Virus record (IMG/VR): IMGVR_UViG_2778261535_000008
Location: 1-11,279 of that record
Source: a virus
Lineage: Duplodnaviria > Heunggongvirae > Uroviricota > Caudoviricetes
DNA: 11,279 nt
Strand: one strand, 5' to 3'
Under the pieces are notes generated by a model that saw only the letters and a program-made list of their open reading frames with translations, did no database searches and was not told the DNA's origin. Positions 3,443-11,279 of the stretch are shown in pieces. The stretch's first letter is position 1. The number at the start of each line of letters is the position of its first letter. The position numbers and the translations under genes were made by a program.

Positions 3443-6400
3443 ATGGGTAAAGGCAGCAGTAAGGGGCATACCCCGCGCGAAGCGAAGGACAACCTGAAGT
3501 CCACGCAGTTACTGAGTGTGATTGATGCCATCAGCGAAGGACCGATTGAAGGTCCGGTGGATGGATTAAAAAGCGTGCTGCTGAACAGTACGCCGGTGCT
3601 GGACAGTGAAGGGAATACCAACATCGCCGGTGTCACGGTGGTGTTCCGGGCAGGTGAGCAGGAGCAGACACCGCCGGAGGGTTTTGAATCCTCCGGATCC
3701 GAGACGGTGCTGGGTACGGAAGTGAAATACGACACGCCGATCACCCGGACCATCACGTCTGCAAACATCGACCGTCTGCGCTTTACCTTCGGTGTGCAGG
3801 CTCTGGTGGAAACCACTTCAAAGGGGGACCGGAATCCGTCGGAAGTCCGCCTGCTGGTTCAGATACAGCGTAACGGTGGCTGGGTGACGGAAAAAGACAT
3901 CACCATTAAGGGCAAAACCACCTCGCAGTATCTGGCCTCGGTGGTGGTGGATAACCTGCCTCCGCGCCCGTTCAATATCCGGATGCGCAGGATGACGCCG
4001 GACAGCACCACAGACCAGCTGCAGAACAAAACGCTCTGGTCGTCATACACCGAAATCATCGATGTGAAACAGTGCTACCCGAACACGGCACTGGTCGGCG
4101 TGCAGGTGGATTCGGAGCAGTTCGGCAGCCAGCAGGTGAGCCGTAATTATCATCTGCGCGGGCGCATTCTGCAGGTGCCGTCGAACTATAACCCGCAGAC
4201 GCGGCAATACAGCGGTATCTGGGACGGGACGTTTAAGCCAGCATACAGCAACAACATGGCCTGGTCTCTGTGGGATATGCTGACCCATCCGCGCTACGGC
4301 ATGGGGAAACGTCTTGGTGCGGCGGATGTGGACAAATGGGCGCTGTATGTCATCGGCCAGCATTGCGATCAGTCGGTGCCGGACGGTTTTGGCGGCACAG
4401 AGCCGCGCATCACCTGTAATGCGTACCTGACCACACAGCGTAAGGCGTGGGATGTTCTCAGTGATTTCTGCTCGGCGATGCGCTGTATGCCGGTATGGAA
4501 CGGGCAGACGCTGACGTTCGTGCAGGACCGACCGTCGGATAAGGTGTGGACCTATAACCGCAGTAATGTGGTGATGCCGGATGATGGCGCGCCGTTCCGC
4601 TACAGCTTCAGCGCCCTGAAGGACCGCCATAATGCCGTTGAGGTGAACTGGATTGACCCGAATAACGGCTGGGAGACGGCGACAGAGCTTGTGGAGGACA
4701 CGCAGGCCATTGCCCGTTACGGTCGTAACGTCACGAAGATGGATGCTTTTGGCTGTACCAGCCGGGGGCAGGCACACCGCGCCGGGCTGTGGCTGATTAA
4801 AACGGAGCTGCTGGAAACGCAGACCGTGGACTTCAGCGTGGGCGCAGAAGGGCTTCGCCATGTACCGGGCGATGTCATTGAAATCTGTGATGATGACTAT
4901 GCGGGTATCAGCATCGGCGGGCGCGTACTGGCGGTGAACAGCCAGACGCGGACACTGACGCTCGACCGTGAAATCACGCTGCCATCCTCCGGCACCACGC
5001 TGATAAGCCTGGTTGACGGACAGGGGAATCCGGTCAGCGTGGAGGTCCAGTCCGTCACCGACGGCGTGAAGGTGAAAGTGAGCCGGGTTCCTGACGGCGT
5101 TGCTGAATACAGCGTGTGGGGGCTGAAGCTGCCGACGCTGCGCCAGCGCCTGTTCCGCTGTGTGAGTATCCGTGAGAACGACGACGGCACGTATGCCATC
5201 ACTGCCGTGCAGCATGTACCGGAAAAAGAAGCCATTGTGGATAACGGGGCGCACTTTGACGGCGACCAGAGCGGCACGGTGAATGGTGTCACGCCGCCAG
5301 CGGTGCAGCACCTGACCGCAGAAGTCACCGCAGACAGCGGGGAATACCAGGTGCTGGCGCGCTGGGATACGCCGAAGGTGGTGAAGGGCGTGAGCTTTAT
5401 GCTTCGCCTGACCGTGGCAGCGGATGACGGCAGTGAGCGGCTGGTCAGCACGGCCCGGACGACGGAAACCACATACCGCTTCAGGCAGCTGGCTCTGGGA
5501 AATTACAGTCTGACAGTCCGGGCGGTAAATGCGTGGGGGCAGCAGGGCGATCCGGCGTCGGTATCGTTCCGGATTGCCGCACCGGCAGCGCCATCGCGGA
5601 TTGAGCTGACGCCGGGCTATTTTCAGATAACCGCCACGCCGCATCTTGCGGTTTATGATCCGACTGTACAGTTTGAGTTCTGGTTCTCGGAAAAGCGGAT
5701 TGCGGATATCAGGCAGGTTGAAACCACAGCCCGCTATCTTGGCACGGCGCTGTACTGGATAGCTGCCAGTATCAATATTAAGCCGGGTCATGATTATTAT
5801 TTTTACGTTCGCAGTGTGAACACCGTTGGCAAATCGGCATTCGTGGAGGCTGTCGGTCGGGCGAGCGATGATGCGGAAGGTTACCTGGATTTTTTCAAAG
5901 GCCAGATAACCGAATCCCATCTCGGCAAGGAGCTGCTGGAAAAAGTCGAGCTGACGGAGGATAACGCCAGCAAACTGGAGGAGTTTTCGAAAGAGTGGAA
6001 AGACGCCAACGATAAATGGAATGCCATGTGGGGCGTCAAAATTGAGCAGACCGAAGACGGCAAACATTATGTCGCGGGGCTTGGCCTTAGTATGGAGGAT
6101 ACGGAGGAAGGCAAACTGAGCCAGTTCCTGGTTGCCGCTAACCGTATCGCGTTTATTGACCCGGCAAACGGGAATGAAACGCCGATGTTTGTGGCGCAGG
6201 GCAACCAGATATTCATGAACGAAGTGTTCCTGAAGTATCTGACGGCTCCCACCATTACCAGTGGCGGCAATCCTCCGGTATTTTCCCTGACACCGGACGG
6301 GCGGCTGACGGCGAAAAATGCCGATATCAGCGGTAACGTGAATGCGAACTCCGGGACGCTCAACAACGTCACGGTAAATGAAAACTGTACGATTAAGGGC

Positions 6401-6856
6401 ATGCTGGAGGCGAACCAGGTCAGAGGTGACTTCGTTAAAGCTGTATCCAAATCATTCCCGAAACAGGCTGGTACGTGGGGTAACACGGAAACACCAAACG
6501 GGACGGTTACAGTCACCATCAGCGATGATCATAACTTTGACCGTCAAATCATTATTCCGCCCATTATCTTTAACGGAATAGCGTATAGCGATCCGGGAAG
6601 TGGTAATAACCCGGGAGGTACAAGATACACGGGTTATGGTTTTGAAGTTCGCAAAAACGGTGTATTAATCGCATCCAGAGAAACTAAAGGGGCCATTCCC
6701 GGTAGCTACAGTGCGGTTATTGATATGCCGAGTGGCAGGGGAAGCGTCACTCTGGAGTTTAAGGTTTTCCATAAAGGCAATCAGTGGGCAGGTAATATCA
6801 CCGACTGTACGGTGATTGTGACCAAAAAAGCCGCTTCCGGCATCAGTATTCGTTGA
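3443..6856 (+). CDS. J: Host specificity protein J (central tail fiber / tip attachment protein)
   Basis: 1137-aa ORF with GGAG at 3431-3434. The N-terminal ~980 aa ([54 protein letters not shown]...) closely match lambda gpJ as I recall it. The C-terminal ~150 aa are divergent (see findings). Confidence 0.95.
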
Positions 6857-6925: not shown

Positions 6926-7525
6926 ATGCGTAAACTTTATGCCGCCATTTTTTCCGCAGCCATCTGTCTGGCCGTATCCGGTGCGCCTGCATGGGCATCT
7001 GAACATCAGTCCACGCTGAGCGCGGGGTATCTTCATGCCTCGACGAACGTTCCCGGCAGCGATGATCTTAACGGGATTAACGTGAAATACCGTTATGAGT
7101 TTACGGACACACTGGGGCTGGTGACGTCATTCAGCTATGCAGGAGACAAGAATCGCCAGCTTACCCGTTACAGCGATACCCGCTGGCATGAAGATTCCGT
7201 GCGTAACCGCTGGTTCAGCGTGATGGCGGGGCCGTCTGTGCGCGTGAATGAATGGTTCAGCGCGTATGCGATGGCGGGTATGGCTTACAGCCGTGTTTCG
7301 ACTTTCTCCGGAGATTATATCCGCGTAACTGACAACAAGGGGAAAACGCACGATGTGCTGACCGGAAGTGATGACGGTCGCCACAGCGACACGTCTCTGG
7401 CATGGGGGGCTGGCGTGCAGTTTAACCCGACCGAATCCGTGGCCATTGATATTGCTTATGAAGGTTCCGGCAGTGGCGACTGGCGCACTGACGGTTTCAT
7501 CGTTGGTGTCGGTTATAAATTCTGA
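6926..7525 (+). CDS. lom: Lom, outer membrane beta-barrel protein of the Ail/Lom/PagC family (moron)
   Basis: 199-aa product with an N-terminal signal peptide ([24 protein letters not shown], AxA cleavage motif), alternating amphipathic beta-strand pattern and a C-terminal aromatic residue (GVGYKF). Located between J and stf as in lambda. RBS GAGAGG at 6915-6920. Confidence 0.9.
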
Positions 7526-7578: not shown

Positions 7579-7589
7579 GTGGAGTGGAT

Positions 7590-9986
7590 ATGGCAGCAGT
7601 AAAAATCTCAGGTGTGCTGAAAGATGGTGCGGGAAAACCAATACAGAACTGCACTATTCAACTGAAGGCAAAGCGTAACAGCACCACGGTACTGGTCAAC
7701 ACAGTGGCCTCTGAAAATCCGGACGAAGCCGGGCGTTACAGCATGGATGTTGAGTATGGCCAGTACAGCGTCACCCTGCTGGTTGAAGGTTTTCCGCCTT
7801 CACATGCCGGGACCATTACCGTCTATGAAGGTTCCAGACCAGGTACGCTGAATGATTTTCTCGGTGCCATGACGGAAGATGATGTCATGCCGGAGGCATT
7901 GCGTCGTTTTGAGGAAATGGTGGAAGAAGCGGCACGCAACGCCGAAGCCGCCTCTCAGAGCGCAACGGCGGCAAAGAAATCCGAAACTGCAGCGGCATCA
8001 TCGAAGAACGCGGCGAAAACCTCAGAAACGAATGCAGCTAATAGTGCACAGGCGGCAGCGGCCTCGCAGACTGCATCGGCAAACTCCGCGACAGCAGCCA
8101 AAAAATCAGAAACCAACGCGAAAAACAGCGAGACAGCCGCAAAGACGAGCGAAACCAACGCAAAGTCCAGCCAGACGGCAGCGAAAACCAGCGAAACGAA
8201 TGCCAAAGCCAGTGAAACTGCAGCGAAAAATAGCCAGAATGCAGCAGCCGAAAGCGAGAGCGCGGCAGCCGGTTCTGCGACTTCAGCAGCCGGATCAGCA
8301 ACTGCTGCGGCTAACAGTCAGAAAGCAGCGAAGACGAGCGAAACCAACGCAAAGTCCAGCCAGACGGCAGCGAAGACCAGCGAAACGAATGCTAAAGCCA
8401 GCGAAACTGCGGCGAAAAACAGTCAGGATGCAGCAGCCCAAAGCGAGAGTGCCGCAGCTGGTTCTGCAAGTGCGGCGGCTGCTTCTGCCACTGCATCAGC
8501 CAACAGTCAAAAAGCTGCAAAAACCAGTGAAACCAATGCAAAGACAAGCGAGACTGCAGCGGCGAAATCGGCGCAAGCATCGGCAGCAAGCCAGACAGCA
8601 GCTAAAGCAAGTGAAGACGCAGCCAGGGAGTATGCAAGCCAGGCTGCAGAGCCGTATAAACAAGTTTTGCAGCCCCTGCCTGATGTGTGGATACCGTTTA
8701 ACGATTCACTGGAAATGATTACTGGTTTCGCTCCTGGTTATAAAAAAGTAACTATCGGTGATGATGTTATTACTTTTCCATCAGAGAAAGTTGTATCTTT
8801 CACCCGCTCCACTTCTGCAACGTATATAAATAAATCAGGTTCATTTACTTTTGCAGAAATTAATGAACCGCGCTTTGAAAAGGAAGGTTTATTAATTGAA
8901 GGTCAGAGGACAAATACATTTACGAATAGCAACAATCCTTCATTATGGAACTATGACGACAAGAATATAGAAATAACCACATCGGTTGATGAATATGGTT
9001 TTAAATATGGGTTGTTCGATGTAAAGGAAACATCAACCACTGAAAGGGCGACGATAATATCTACTGGATACAGCAGGGTTATTGATGTTGCTGCAAATGA
9101 ATCTGTTACCTTGTCCTGTAGGGTTAAGAAGATAAATGGAGAAGGTATTATAACGTTAAGACCCAGAATATCTTTCGTTAACGATAACGGCACAAGCAAC
9201 ACGCTGGTAGCTGGTTCCTACATAGATTGCGAAACTGGTGATGTTTTAGGTTTTTCTGGTGGAGATGCTGTAAATCATGTCATATACAGAGAAGCTAACG
9301 GATGGTTACGCGTCGAATTTACATATAAATCACCAGATGCAAAAAGTATGTATGGGCGCTTTGAAATGGGAGCAGATAAAAGGGCGATCAAAAAAGGCGA
9401 TCAGATAATGTTTACTACGCCACAATTTGAAAAAGGATCGTGTGCATCATCATTTATCGTTACATCAGATGTGGCAGTTACACGGGCTAGTGACGTGGTA
9501 ATAATGCCAATAAGACTGAACTGGTCAACGCCTCCGTTAAGCGTTCTTATGGAAGTTAATATCAACTGGGACAAAATGCCAAACAGTGAAGGTTCAGCAA
9601 GGCTTCTTAACGTGTCAATAACTGGCGCAACAACGGATGTTGCTGATGAAAGTTATATGTATTTTGGTTTTACCTCTGGAGGCGCGCGCTCAATTATAAC
9701 TAACGGAAAAGGAACAAAGACCGAGTATAAAGCCTACTGTAACAGGACAACCCGCAGGTTTATTGCTGGATTTAAGTTTACAGAGCAGAAAGAATTGCGT
9801 GCTGTTATAAACGGTAACTTTGGCGCTGTTGGTGTATCACAACACACAAGACAACGTTATACAGAAGGGCCAATAAATATAGGCGGTCAATCAATATCAG
9901 GTAACAGGCATTTATTTGGACACGTACGCAATTTACGTATCTGGCATAAGGAACTGACAGATGCACAAATGGGAGAAAGAATATAA
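7590..9986 (+). CDS. stf: Side tail fiber protein (Stf-like): conserved N-terminal anchor, Ala/Ser/Thr/Lys-rich repeat shaft, divergent distal module with a LamG/ConA-like C-terminus
   Basis: ATG at 7590 is preferred over the GTG at 7584 used by the ORF track; GGAG at 7581-7584. N-terminus MAAVKISGVLKDGAGKPIQNCTIQLKAKRNSTTVLVNTVASENPDEAGRYSMDVEYGQYSV...HAGTITVYE matches the lambda Stf N-terminus as I recall it. The C-terminal motif LFGHVRNLRIWHKELTDAQM resembles the terminal strand signature of Laminin_G_3 / concanavalin-A-like jelly-roll domains. Confidence 0.85.
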   Translation: MAAVKISGVLKDGAGKPIQNCTIQLKAKRNSTTVLVNTVASENPDEAGRYSMDVEYGQYSVTLLVEGFPPSHAGTITVYEGSRPGTLNDFLGAMTEDDVMPEALRRFEEMVEEAARNAEAASQSATAAKKSETAAASSKNAAKTSETNAANSAQAAAASQTASANSATAAKKSETNAKNSETAAKTSETNAKSSQTAAKTSETNAKASETAAKNSQNAAAESESAAAGSATSAAGSATAAANSQKAAKTSETNAKSSQTAAKTSETNAKASETAAKNSQDAAAQSESAAAGSASAAAASATASANSQKAAKTSETNAKTSETAAAKSAQASAASQTAAKASEDAAREYASQAAEPYKQVLQPLPDVWIPFNDSLEMITGFAPGYKKVTIGDDVITFPSEKVVSFTRSTSATYINKSGSFTFAEINEPRFEKEGLLIEGQRTNTFTNSNNPSLWNYDDKNIEITTSVDEYGFKYGLFDVKETSTTERATIISTGYSRVIDVAANESVTLSCRVKKINGEGIITLRPRISFVNDNGTSNTLVAGSYIDCETGDVLGFSGGDAVNHVIYREANGWLRVEFTYKSPDAKSMYGRFEMGADKRAIKKGDQIMFTTPQFEKGSCASSFIVTSDVAVTRASDVVIMPIRLNWSTPPLSVLMEVNINWDKMPNSEGSARLLNVSITGATTDVADESYMYFGFTSGGARSIITNGKGTKTEYKAYCNRTTRRFIAGFKFTEQKELRAVINGNFGAVGVSQHTRQRYTEGPINIGGQSISGNRHLFGHVRNLRIWHKELTDAQMGERI
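8142..8519 (+). repeat. In-frame tandem duplication, 2 x 189 bp (63 codons), within the stf shaft
   Basis: Unit 1 (8142-8330) and unit 2 (8331-8519) both begin aagacgagcgaaaccaacgcaaagtccagccagacggcagcga and stay roughly 90% identical by eye. They encode AKTSETNAKSSQTAAKTSETNAKASETAAKNSQ...SQKA twice. Degenerate shorter copies of the same motif flank both sides (about 7960-8600). Confidence 0.8.
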
Positions 9987-10267
9987 TGCGAGACTTAACC
10001 CTCAAATTCATAAACAAGGCCGACTTTTCGGCCTTTATGGATAGCATTGGTTATGACGATGACGAGGTGATGCAGAACAATGTTCTCATTGATGTGATAG
10101 GTAACGTGTACAAAGAAACCGGAGAAATTACTGAAGATGGCGAGCCGGTATGTGTTAAGGAAGACGGATATTTTGTAAACGTGCGCATCATTAATGATGT
10201 GAAAACACCGTCAATATTCGATGAATACGCGGTTGTTGTTGAGCATCAACTTCGTGGCTGGATGTGA
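9986..10267 (+). CDS. Hypothetical small acidic protein, translationally coupled to stf (possible fiber accessory or assembly factor)
   Basis: 93-aa ORF whose ATG overlaps the stf stop (TAATG at 9984-9988). Asp/Glu-rich; I recognise no family. It occupies the slot where lambda has tfa but shows no resemblance to lambda Tfa. Confidence 0.5.
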   Translation: MRDLTLKFINKADFSAFMDSIGYDDDEVMQNNVLIDVIGNVYKETGEITEDGEPVCVKEDGYFVNVRIINDVKTPSIFDEYAVVVEHQLRGWM

Positions 10268-10276
10268 GGGAGACAA

Positions 10277-10966
10277 ATGGCTACATCGACAGTAATTCCA
10301 GGAGATATCACCACGCTAAAGGGAGATGTCAGTAAAACTAAGGAAGATATTTCCTCAATTAACGGAAAAGTATCAACGCTTCAGATTGATATGACCAGTG
10401 CAAAGCAGGATATCAGCACCAGATACACAAAAACTGAAGTTGATAATAAGCTGAAAAACAAAGTGGAAGCGAACGATCTGGAAAGCGGTCGTTATGGCGG
10501 TGATTTTTACCCGCTGACAGGTCGTGAAGCGTTTTATTTATGGAATTTGGCCACGACTACAGCGGCGGCAAACCTTTATCTTAATCCTGACCCCGCAATT
10601 TCGTCTGTACTGCGGTCAACATCGTCTATTCGCTATAAACATTCAGTAGAGACGATAGATTCAGAGCACGCCGATCTCATTTTCAAGATGCGCCCTGTGT
10701 GGTACAGGTCGCAATGCGAAAATGACAGGCGTGACTGGGGATTCTACGGGTTGATTGCCGAGGAAGTAGGAGAAATTGCCCCTCAGTTTGTACACTGGCG
10801 ACCAGCTAACGAGAATGATGCTCCTGAAGCTATTTCCAGCAATGGCCTTGTAGCCGAAGGTGTAATGTACGAACGTCTGGTTGTTCCACTGATTCACCAT
10901 ATCCAGAAACTGACTGAAAGAGTTGAAGAACTTGAGTCAGAATTAAAGTTGTTATCAACTTCCTGA
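10277..10966 (+). CDS. Short fiber-like protein with N-terminal coiled-coil region and C-terminal intramolecular chaperone (peptidase S74-like) auto-processing domain
   Basis: 229-aa ORF with GGAG at 10269-10272. N-terminal 70 aa are heptad-like and Ser/Thr/Lys-rich. The C-terminal 110 aa (SSIRYKHSVETIDSEHADLIFKMRPVWYR...WGFYGLIAEEVGEIAPQFV...EGVMYERLVVPLIHHIQKLTERVEELESELKLL) match the conserved pattern of the chaperone-of-endosialidase domain: Ser...Lys dyad, GxIAQEV-like core, Y-x-x-L-V/I-P-L-I and a terminal coiled coil. Confidence 0.65.
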   Translation: MATSTVIPGDITTLKGDVSKTKEDISSINGKVSTLQIDMTSAKQDISTRYTKTEVDNKLKNKVEANDLESGRYGGDFYPLTGREAFYLWNLATTTAAANLYLNPDPAISSVLRSTSSIRYKHSVETIDSEHADLIFKMRPVWYRSQCENDRRDWGFYGLIAEEVGEIAPQFVHWRPANENDAPEAISSNGLVAEGVMYERLVVPLIHHIQKLTERVEELESELKLLSTS

Positions 10967-10991: not shown

Positions 10992-11279
10992 ATGGATATA
11001 AGCCCCTTACTTCATGCGCTTTGTGCTGTGGCTGCGCAGGTACTGATTGGCCTTTTTACCGGAAACTGGGCTTACGGTGCGATAGCTGGTTGTTCGTTCT
11101 TCATTGCGCGCGAACACACCCAGGCAGAATATCGCTGGATTGAAATGTTCGGACATGGCAAGCGTATGAATATGCCGTGGTGGGGCGGTTTTGATCCACG
11201 CGCGTGGGATGTAGCAAGTCTGATGGATTTTTCTGTGCCGGTGGTGGCGTGTATTCTGGTCTGGCTGTTGATCCGTTGA
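10992..11279 (+). CDS. Hypothetical small membrane protein, possible lipoprotein (candidate moron)
   Basis: 95-aa ORF with a strong RBS AAGGAGG at 10981-10987; the stop is the last codon of the window. Two hydrophobic segments (residues about 5-38 and 80-94). A lipobox-like IAGC motif at residues 31-34 follows the first segment. No family recognised. Confidence 0.45.
   Translation: MDISPLLHALCAVAAQVLIGLFTGNWAYGAIAGCSFFIAREHTQAEYRWIEMFGHGKRMNMPWWGGFDPRAWDVASLMDFSVPVVACILVWLLIR

What the first reader, a model, noticed from the sequence alone, without database searches (positions are those of the whole stretch)
10277..10966. Stand-alone short coiled-coil protein carrying an intramolecular-chaperone (S74-like) self-cleaving domain
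The C-terminal ~110 residues carry the hallmarks of the auto-proteolytic chaperone domain found at the C-termini of endosialidase tailspikes and phage T5 L-shaped fibers. There is a candidate Ser/Lys dyad in SSIRYK (Ser116/Lys121, spacing 5), a GLIAEEV core and a terminal coiled coil. The mature part upstream would be only ~115 aa, mostly coiled coil, so this is not a full tailspike. It could be a fibritin or whisker-like appendage, a second tip protein docking on Stf, or the remnant of a replaced fiber gene that kept its own start (RBS plus ATG are intact).
Basis: partly seen in the sequence, partly recalled or inferred. Interest (0 to 1): 0.7.

Follow-up and report, generated by a model that had tools for sequence, protein, structure and literature searches.

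The report
Minimal self-cleaving side-fibre tip protein
This is a real and very common prophage gene for a short three-stranded coiled-coil protein ending in a self-cleaving "intramolecular chaperone" domain, most likely a stripped-down outer segment of a two-part side tail fibre. It belongs to a known family, but its exact job has not been tested.

Summary
ORF 10277-10966 (229 aa) has its own Shine-Dalgarno sequence and ATG. It matches Pfam Peptidase_S74 above the curated cut-off at residues 116-172. Its AlphaFold model hits only solved S74/ICA chaperone domains. Ser116 and Lys121 are invariant in 27 homologues.

It is not a one-off remnant. The ORF93+ORF229 pair is intact in 719 of 5,426 complete E. 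coli genomes and in about 47 phage records, including lytic T1-like phages.

It is the third gene of a mobile cassette: an Stf shaft with a lectin-like C-terminal domain, then a 93-aa protein, then an S74 protein. The cassette occurs in lambdoid, N15-like, T1-like, Nonagvirus and T5-like phages.

Its first 15 residues are shared with much longer alleles. One of these is the 574-aa "T-shaped" distal fibre Gp24 of phage IrisVonRoten, which published models dock onto the Stf homologue.

ORF229 therefore looks like a minimal distal-fibre allele with no receptor-binding domain: anchor, six-heptad coiled coil, a small beta cap, then the chaperone. The third gene is optional, because phage 21 lacks it.

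Self-cleavage, virion incorporation and docking are inferred, not shown. Verdict: new member of a known kind, modest interest.

The parts
10277..10966 (+). ORF229, the short S74-domain protein (229 aa, 25.7 kDa; end includes the stop codon)
10266..10272 (+). Shine-Dalgarno-like GAGGGAG, 4 nt before the ATG; overlaps the last two bases of the ORF93 TGA stop (10265-10267)
   Evidence: read directly from the sequence
10277..10321 (+). N-terminal anchor, residues 1-15 (MATSTVIPGDITTLK). It is conserved in alleles that differ in everything between the anchor and the S74 domain.
   Evidence: invariant M1 T3 T5 I7 P8 D10 I11 L14 K15
10295..10414 (+). Six-heptad alpha-helical coiled coil, residues 7-46 (modelled helix 10-47; shorter helices continue to about residue 69)
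   Evidence: weak similarity to P22 gp26 needle and DT57C LtfA coiled-coil repeats
10532..10621 (+). Conserved pre-cleavage segment, residues ~86-115 (FYLWNLATTTAAANLYLNPDPAISSVLRST S). It travels with this S74 subfamily and is probably the small trimeric beta cap on which the chaperone acts.
   Evidence: most library matches start at query residue 77-98
10622..10639 (+). Catalytic motif S116-S-I-R-Y-K121 (Ser/Lys dyad, spacing 5)
   Evidence: S116, Y120, K121 invariant in 27 sequences
10622..10963 (+). S74 / intramolecular chaperone domain, residues 116-229 (Pfam-matched core 116-172 = 10622-10792; C-terminal helix 198-228 = 10868-10960)
9986..10267 (+). ORF93, a small protein of unknown fold. 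It followed the lectin-like fibre C-terminal domain in every locus examined. Its start overlaps the stf stop by 1 nt.
7584..9986 (+). stf, the proximal side tail fibre (the real start is probably ATG 7590): phage_tail_N domain, Ala-rich shaft, then a lectin-like C-terminal domain from about 8673 (PLPDVW...)

Best explanation
ORF229 is the distal, third-gene subunit of a bipartite lambdoid side tail fibre, in a minimal form that has no receptor-binding domain. It is made from the same late transcript as stf and ORF93. Three chains are brought into register by the C-terminal S74 intramolecular-chaperone domain (116-229), whose terminal helices bundle. This templates the small conserved beta cap (about residues 86-115) and lets the six-heptad coiled coil (7-46) form towards the N-terminus. 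Ser116, activated by Lys121, then cuts the chain just before itself. That releases a 13.2 kDa chaperone and leaves a 3 x 12.5 kDa trimer. The conserved 15-residue N-terminal anchor fixes this trimer to a partner that travels in the same cassette. The most likely partner is the distal end of the Stf shaft, where the three lectin-like C-terminal domains splay out, possibly with ORF93. The result is a short axial stub of about 6-8 nm. Shown here: the ORF, the domain, the fold, the conserved dyad, the synteny, the shared anchor and the wide intact distribution. Inferred: trimerisation, cleavage, docking and presence in virions. What the stub contributes (stabilising the fibre end, or weak surface contact) is unknown.
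For: Structural rather than purely chaperone role: the anchor MATSTVIPGDITTLK is shared with 333-574 aa alleles that carry large inserted domains (2G7b, ESCO3, PhiR46_1, JenP2, HMD-P4, PhiR11_1, IrisVonRoten Gp24). IrisVonRoten Gp22, Gp23 and Gp24 correspond to window Stf (40% identity), ORF93 (40%) and ORF229 (anchor plus chaperone). PMC11990801 models Gp24 attached to the proximal fibre Gp22, which has a galectin-like C-terminal domain. The anchor is conserved across lambdoid, N15-like, Drexlerviridae, Nonagvirus and Tequintavirus phages whose Stf N-terminal attachment regions differ in part, so its partner should lie inside the cassette.
Functional gene: intact in 719 of 5,426 complete E. 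coli genomes. One 90% cluster holds 2,928 member sequences. About 47 phage records cover at least 80% of it. dN/dS is 0.23-0.39, and dS is saturated against the T1-like copy while dN is 0.25-0.35 in all three regions. No terminator-like site lies between stf and ORF229.
Precedent for short N-terminal anchors in branched fibres: DT57C LtfB and phiEco32 gp15 (PMC4728585; PMC10713586).
Against: There is no direct evidence of docking, cleavage or virion presence. Complex modelling was not available, and the monomer model is poor for residues 58-125. The third gene is dispensable for the cassette: phage 21 has Stf, ORF93 and then the membrane protein with no S74 gene, and roughly two thirds of phage records with ORF93 showed no anchor match (182 versus 71 records). 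There is no room for a receptor-binding domain, so what a distal subunit would add is unclear. Some lytic T1-like phages carry a frameshifted copy. ORF93's role is unknown.
Confidence: 0.6

Rival explanations
1. Trans-acting assembly chaperone. ORF229 is not a virion component. It helps the Stf protein, which has no S74 domain or Tfa of its own, to trimerise or fold, and is then discarded. This is the reading implied by the database names 'putative lateral tail fiber chaperone' and 'chaperone of endosialidase'.
For: Depositors' annotations in KarlJaspers, PeterMerian, KurtStettler, HMD-P4, SECphi27 and JK16. The window Stf has no S74 or Caudo_TAP hit and no classical tfa gene follows it. ORF229 has no receptor-binding domain.
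Against: Phage 21 and many other phages keep the same Stf C-terminal domain plus ORF93 without any S74 gene, so Stf does not need it. The cleavage dyad is invariant, which matters only if a mature N-terminal product is released. The anchor is shared with alleles that carry large inserted domains; one of them, IrisVonRoten Gp24, is described as bearing two receptor-binding domains and modelled as a distal fibre. All characterised S74 domains act in cis on the chain they end (established knowledge of endoNF, T5 pb1, GA-1 gp12 and MyRF; structures hit).
Confidence: 0.15
2. Independent mini-fibre or whisker. The mature trimer attaches somewhere other than Stf (tail tip, collar or head) and acts like a fibritin-type whisker or sensor.
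For: The architecture, a short coiled coil plus a C-terminal trimerisation nucleus, is formally like T4 fibritin. Nothing here shows where the anchor binds.
Against: The anchor is conserved across five phage lineages whose Stf N-terminal attachment regions differ in part, while the only proteins shared in these loci are the Stf shaft with its C-terminal domain and ORF93. The gene always sits directly after those two.
Confidence: 0.08
3. Functionless leftover. It is the C-terminal end of a former single-chain S74-type Stf that stayed translatable after the fibre gene was replaced.
For: Residues 37-229 are 56-59% identical to the C-terminal ~190 aa of single-chain lambdoid Stf proteins (P0180, P0185: phage_tail_N ... 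S74). PHROG 3299 aligns the whole ORF to the last ~240 positions of a 1385-position profile. Frameshifted copies exist in some lytic phages.
Against: The same short architecture is kept in lambdoid and T1-like phages at 56-63% identity with saturated dS. It is intact in 719 complete genomes. It has acquired a specific anchor (residues 1-24) that is absent from the listed long fibres. Catalytic residues are invariant.
Confidence: 0.05

Closest known systems
Distal lateral-fibre subunit of the Stf-type cassette, e.g. 'T-shaped' fibre Gp24 of Tequintavirus IrisVonRoten (Bas32; PMC11990801)
   Same: Same gene position: proximal fibre with a lectin/galectin-like C-terminal domain, then a ~92-aa protein, then this gene, with the same 9-nt spacing. 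Same 15-residue N-terminal anchor. Same C-terminal S74 chaperone with the Ser/Lys motif.
   Different: Gp24 is 574 aa and carries two receptor-binding domains (Gp12-like and T5-like) between anchor and chaperone. ORF229 has only a coiled coil and a ~50-residue linker/cap there.
Short homologues in Drexlerviridae, e.g. KarlJaspers bas06_0035 'putative lateral tail fiber chaperone' and SECphi27/JK16 'chaperone of endosialidase'
   Same: Same length class (about 221-231 aa), same architecture along the whole protein, 56-63% identity, same cassette.
   Different: They sit in lytic T1-like genomes and the coiled coil has a different number of heptads. Their function is equally untested; the names are predictions.
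C-terminal intramolecular chaperone domains of endosialidase endoNF (3GW6), T5 pb1, GA-1 gp12 (3GUD) and DT57C LtfA; Peptidase S74
   Same: HMM match, fold, Ser-x4-Lys dyad at the start of the domain, C-terminal helical bundle, position at the extreme C-terminus of a trimeric fibre.
   Different: In those proteins the chaperone ends a polypeptide of hundreds to more than a thousand residues that bears an enzyme or receptor-binding domain. Here the mature part is only 115 residues.
Branched fibres built from two proteins: DT57C LtfA/LtfB and phiEco32 gp14/gp15 (PMC4728585, PMC10713586)
   Same: The second fibre protein is attached through a short conserved N-terminus to the first, and both ends of the system use S74 chaperones.
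   Different: No sequence similarity between the anchors was tested or seen. LtfA has its own S74 domain whereas the window Stf does not. LtfB is a proven receptor-binding protein.
Single-chain lambdoid Stf proteins ending in the same module (P0180 735 aa, P0185 958 aa)
   Same: 56-59% identity to ORF229 residues 37-229, down to the same C-terminal ...ELESELKLLSTS ending in P0185.
   Different: There the module is fused to phage_tail_N, the shaft and globular domains. In the window it is a separate gene with its own anchor.

Membership tests
Peptidase S74 / intramolecular chaperone (ICA) domain | Sequence match to PF13884 above the curated threshold | tested here: met
   27.6 bits against a cut-off of 22, residues 116-172 to profile positions 1-57 of 58
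Peptidase S74 / intramolecular chaperone (ICA) domain | Ser/Lys catalytic dyad (Ser-x4-Lys) at the first residue of the domain | tested here: met
   S116 and K121 align with SGIEYK of DT57C LtfA and are invariant in 27 homologues
Peptidase S74 / intramolecular chaperone (ICA) domain | Chaperone fold with a C-terminal helical bundle | tested here: met
Peptidase S74 / intramolecular chaperone (ICA) domain | Located at the extreme C-terminus of a trimeric fibre or spike chain | tested here: met
   The domain ends the protein and is preceded by a heptad coiled coil. In the listed library relatives the match is also at the C-terminus.
Peptidase S74 / intramolecular chaperone (ICA) domain | Autoproteolytic release, and dependence of trimer folding on the domain | not testable with these tools
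   Needs expression of wild type, S116A and K121A proteins
Distal subunit of the two-part lateral/side tail fibre (IrisVonRoten Gp24 type) | Gene directly downstream of the proximal fibre (lectin-like C-terminal domain) and the ~92-aa protein | tested here: met
   Window stf, ORF93, ORF229; the same order in 10 other loci
Distal subunit of the two-part lateral/side tail fibre (IrisVonRoten Gp24 type) | Conserved N-terminal anchor M-x-T-x-T-x-I-P-x-D-I-x-x-L-K | tested here: met
   Invariant M1 T3 T5 I7 P8 D10 I11 L14 K15 across six alleles of 229-574 aa
Distal subunit of the two-part lateral/side tail fibre (IrisVonRoten Gp24 type) | Receptor-binding domain(s) between anchor and chaperone | tested here: not met
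   ORF229 has only a coiled coil and a short linker/cap where long alleles have 100-350 extra residues. Hence it is called a 'minimal allele', not a typical member.
Distal subunit of the two-part lateral/side tail fibre (IrisVonRoten Gp24 type) | Physical attachment to the proximal fibre; presence in virions | not testable with these tools
   Only published AF-Multimer models of the homologous pair exist (PMC11990801).
Tfa / Caudo_TAP-type separate tail fibre assembly chaperone | Homology to Tfa/gpU/gp38-type chaperones | tested here: not met
   No such Pfam, NCBIfam or PHROG hit for ORF229 or ORF93
Fibritin-like whisker (T4 wac) | Foldon-type C-terminal nucleus and collar-binding N-terminus | tested here: not met
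   The C-terminal nucleus is an S74 domain, not a foldon. No fibritin hit appeared in any library.

The most novel reading that the evidence does not exclude
The RBD-less mini-subunit is not a degenerate fibre tip but a dedicated cap. Its chaperone-driven trimer would use the anchor to clamp, or set the register of, the far end of the Stf shaft. This would be an intermolecular use of an intramolecular chaperone. Alternatively it occupies the docking site so that RBD-bearing distal subunits encoded by co-resident prophages cannot attach, which would tune host range in polylysogens (up to 5 copies per genome).
Probability: 0.12. Interest if true: 0.6.

Novelty: new member of a known kind. Interest (0 to 1): 0.3.

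Why it matters
Side and lateral tail fibres set the first contact between coliphages and their hosts, and they are being swapped deliberately in engineered phage particles. This work makes three practical points.

- A widespread cassette (Stf shaft with a lectin-like domain, a 93-aa protein, and an optional S74 protein) moves as a unit between lambdoid, N15-like, T1-like, Nonagvirus and T5-like phages.
- The database name 'lateral tail fiber chaperone' for the short third gene is probably misleading. The protein has the anchor of a structural distal subunit.
- About 13% of complete E. coli genomes carry a version with no receptor-binding domain, and its contribution to adsorption is unknown.

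It is also an unusually small (229 aa) natural substrate for studying S74 chaperone-driven trimerisation and self-cleavage.

Tried and rejected
- **ORF93 structure.** The AF2 model from 18 close homologues had mean pLDDT 43.8 and was unusable for fold search. ORF93 also has no Pfam or NCBIfam hit and no PDB sequence relative even with a 7-sequence profile. Its role stays open.
- **Literature.** Searches for experimental work on the short S74 protein (virion proteomics, lambdoid Stf plus intramolecular chaperone, Peptidase_S74 plus lateral fibre) found only annotations and the BASEL descriptions. The Eligo Stf-engineering preprint does not mention it.
- **dN/dS on close pairs.** It rests on few substitutions. 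The coiled-coil region gives 0.6-0.8 from 8-11 changes, so region-specific claims are weak.
- **MAFFT register.** The alignment of short with long alleles put S117 rather than S116 under the SDR serine. This was rejected in favour of S116/K121 because of the HMM and phmmer alignments and the wider alignments.
- **Promoter and terminator scans.** They gave nothing above shuffled expectation inside the stf-ORF229 stretch.
- **Antisense ORF 10661-10900 (79 aa).** It has no support and was ignored.

Full report
**Context.** The window is a lambdoid tail module. It holds the end of the tape-measure gene, then M, L, K, I and J (3443-6856), lom (6926-7525), an 800-aa side tail fibre gene stf (7584-9986), a 93-aa ORF (9986-10267), the target ORF229 (10277-10966) and a 95-aa membrane-protein ORF (10992-11279). 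Terminator-like hairpins follow J and lom, but none lies between stf and ORF229. The stf stop overlaps the ORF93 start by one base. ORF229 starts 9 nt after the ORF93 stop, behind GAGGGAG. The three genes therefore look co-transcribed and tightly coupled.

**Checking the observation.**
- Pfam Peptidase_S74 matches residues 116-172 at 27.6 bits, above the curated cut-off of 22. Profile position 1 falls on Ser116.
- A sequence search of the PDB finds the S74-bearing fibre LtfA of phage DT57C (8hqz, E 1.4e-7), with SSIRYK aligned to SGIEYK.
- An AlphaFold2 model built on 27 homologues is confident for residues 131-229 (pLDDT 77-94). It shows a helix at 10-47 and is poor for 58-125, as expected for a segment that folds only as an intertwined trimer.
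- In an alignment of 27 homologues down to 30% identity, S116, Y120 and K121 are invariant and S117 nearly so.
- Residues 7-46 keep one heptad register, and the C-terminal helix 198-228 is heptad-like too.

**Is it a live gene or a leftover?**
- The ORF93+ORF229 DNA is present at 80% coverage or more in 719 of 5,426 complete E. coli genomes. RefSeq calls the product 'tail fiber domain-containing protein'.
- One 90%-identity cluster alone holds 2,928 sequences.
- tblastn finds it at 80% coverage or more in 47 phage records, mostly lytic T1-like Drexlerviridae, at 56-63% identity along the entire length.
- dN/dS between lambdoid copies is 0.23-0.39. Against the T1-like copy dS is saturated while dN is 0.25-0.35 in all three regions.

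This is a maintained gene with a stable short architecture, not a decaying fragment. The closest long relatives are single-chain lambdoid Stf proteins (phage_tail_N ... S74; 735 and 958 aa) whose last ~190 residues are 56-59% identical to ORF229 residues 37-229. Only residues 1-24 are peculiar to the stand-alone form.

**The cassette.** The same three-gene order recurs in several phage groups:
- lambdoid phages (IdasGreatGrand, PhiR49_1, PhiR55_1, 2G7b, PhiR11_1);
- an N15-like phage (PhiR46_1);
- Drexlerviridae (KarlJaspers and others);
- Nonagvirus (ESCO3, JenP2);
- T5-like Tequintavirus (HMD-P4, IrisVonRoten).

The shared part of the first gene is the Ala-rich shaft plus a ~430-residue C-terminal domain. 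That domain begins PLPDVWIPFNDSL and ends GGQ..G.RHLFGH.RN.RIWHK.LTD.Q. NCBIfam calls it a head-spike-fibre domain, it matches the RcGTA head spike fibre 6tb9, and the BASEL authors describe it as galectin-like. The N-terminal virion-attachment parts differ in part between lineages: KarlJaspers and IrisVonRoten do not share the window's N-terminus. G+C drops from about 0.55 to about 0.39 at roughly 8600 and stays low into ORF229, which marks the mosaic boundary. ORF93 homologues followed this C-terminal domain in every locus examined, including a 1479-aa Vequintavirus fibre.

**The third gene is optional and modular.** Phage 21 has Stf, ORF93 and the membrane protein with no S74 gene between them. 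ORF93 is found in 182 phage records, but the anchor peptide in only 71. Where the third gene exists, its first 15 residues are conserved (M1 T3 T5 I7 P8 D10 I11 L14 K15 invariant) while the rest varies widely. Alleles run from 229 aa here through 333-351 aa to 574 aa in IrisVonRoten Gp24, and even the S74 domains are only about 28% identical. IrisVonRoten Gp22, Gp23 and Gp24 correspond to Stf (40% identity), ORF93 (40%) and ORF229. PMC11990801 describes Gp24 as a 'T-shaped' distal fibre with two receptor-binding domains and a C-terminal intramolecular chaperone, modelled by AlphaFold-Multimer as attached to the proximal fibre Gp22. [quoted passage not shown] Short conserved N-termini that dock a second fibre protein onto a first are also the accepted explanation for DT57C LtfB and phiEco32 gp15 (PMC4728585; PMC10713586).

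**Most likely mechanism.** ORF229 is the minimal allele of this distal subunit: anchor (1-15), six-heptad coiled coil (7-46), a linker, a conserved pre-cleavage segment (about 86-115, where most library matches begin) and the chaperone (116-229).
- By analogy with endoNF, T5 pb1, GA-1 gp12 and MyRF, the chaperone trimerises first and templates the adjacent beta cap.
- The coiled coil then forms.
- The chaperone is released by Ser116/Lys121, leaving 3 x 12.5 kDa.
- The anchor is conserved across phages whose virion-attachment parts differ in part, so its partner must travel with the cassette. That partner is the end of the Stf shaft with its C-terminal domain, or ORF93.

The domain, fold, residues, synteny and distribution are shown. 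Trimerisation, cleavage, docking and virion presence are inferred. I put 0.6 on this reading.

**Rivals.**
- *Trans-acting Stf chaperone (0.15).* This is what several depositors' names imply. It is weakened by phage 21-type loci that keep Stf and ORF93 without it, by the invariant cleavage dyad, and by the anchor shared with long alleles carrying large inserted domains, one of them described as a receptor-binding distal fibre.
- *Independent whisker elsewhere on the virion (0.08).* Not excluded, but it does not explain why the anchor is conserved in phages whose virion-attachment parts differ.
- *Functionless leftover (0.05).* Contradicted by the distribution and selection data, although frameshifted copies in a few T1-like phages grown on K-12 show the gene is dispensable in the laboratory, as lateral fibres generally are.

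**Comparison and novelty.** The protein meets every testable criterion for an S74 intramolecular-chaperone protein. It meets the positional and anchor criteria for the distal-fibre family but lacks a receptor-binding domain. Homologues are already annotated and the long alleles have been described, so this is a new, minimal member of a known kind. What remains open, and mildly interesting, is why a distal subunit without a receptor-binding domain is so common. It could stabilise the fibre end. The bolder reading (about 0.12) is that it acts as a chaperone-built clamp, or as a cap that blocks other distal subunits in polylysogens.

Noticed in passing
window 9986-10279: ORF93 and ORF229 are in the same reading frame, separated only by TGA plus GGG AGA CAA. 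The same in-frame layout occurs in most related loci (L001, L003-L009, L014) but not in KarlJaspers (L002). Stop-codon readthrough would give an ORF93-ORF229 fusion. This is probably just shared descent.
   Followed up: partly
L015 (phage orkinos) 3033-3061; also AV105, ityhuna, JLBYU10, JLBYU19: In several T1-like phages the short S74 gene appears split into two ORFs or two match pieces. In orkinos an extra C in a C-run (tacccccctaac) at the GSFYPLTG codons causes the split. This could be a homopolymer sequencing error, a real inactivating mutation, or a slippery on/off site. The window has tac ccg ctg with no run.
   Followed up: partly
window ~8600-10600: G+C falls from about 0.55 to about 0.39 inside stf, at the junction between the shaft and the C-terminal domain, and stays low through ORF93 and the first half of ORF229. 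This marks a horizontally exchanged cassette shared by lambdoid, N15-like, T1-like, Nonagvirus and T5-like phages.
   Followed up: partly
window 9986-10267 (ORF93): A 93-aa protein (phrog_1361) followed the lectin-like fibre C-terminal domain in every locus examined (182 phage records hold a homologue, including Vequintavirus and phage 21). It has no Pfam, NCBIfam or PDB relative, and its AF2 model is unusable (pLDDT 43.8). It is an uncharacterised, very widespread fibre accessory protein.
   Followed up: partly
window 10992-11279 (ORF95): A complete 95-aa predicted membrane protein (phrog_1443; annotated in phage 21 with a signal sequence and 2 TMDs). It closes the fibre operon in lambdoid phages and follows ORF93 directly in phage 21. 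It may be a moron or exclusion gene.
   Followed up: no
window 7584-7592: The mechanical ORF call starts stf at GTG 7584 (MDMAAVK...), but all homologues start MAAVK, so the real start is probably ATG 7590.
   Followed up: no
window 7900-8650 (stf shaft): The Ala-rich shaft is built of repeats such as AAKTSETNAK/SSQTAAKTSETNAKASETAAKNSQ. Repeat number differs between otherwise near-identical Stf proteins (IdasGreatGrand lacks about 63 residues), so fibre length varies by repeat gain and loss.
   Followed up: no
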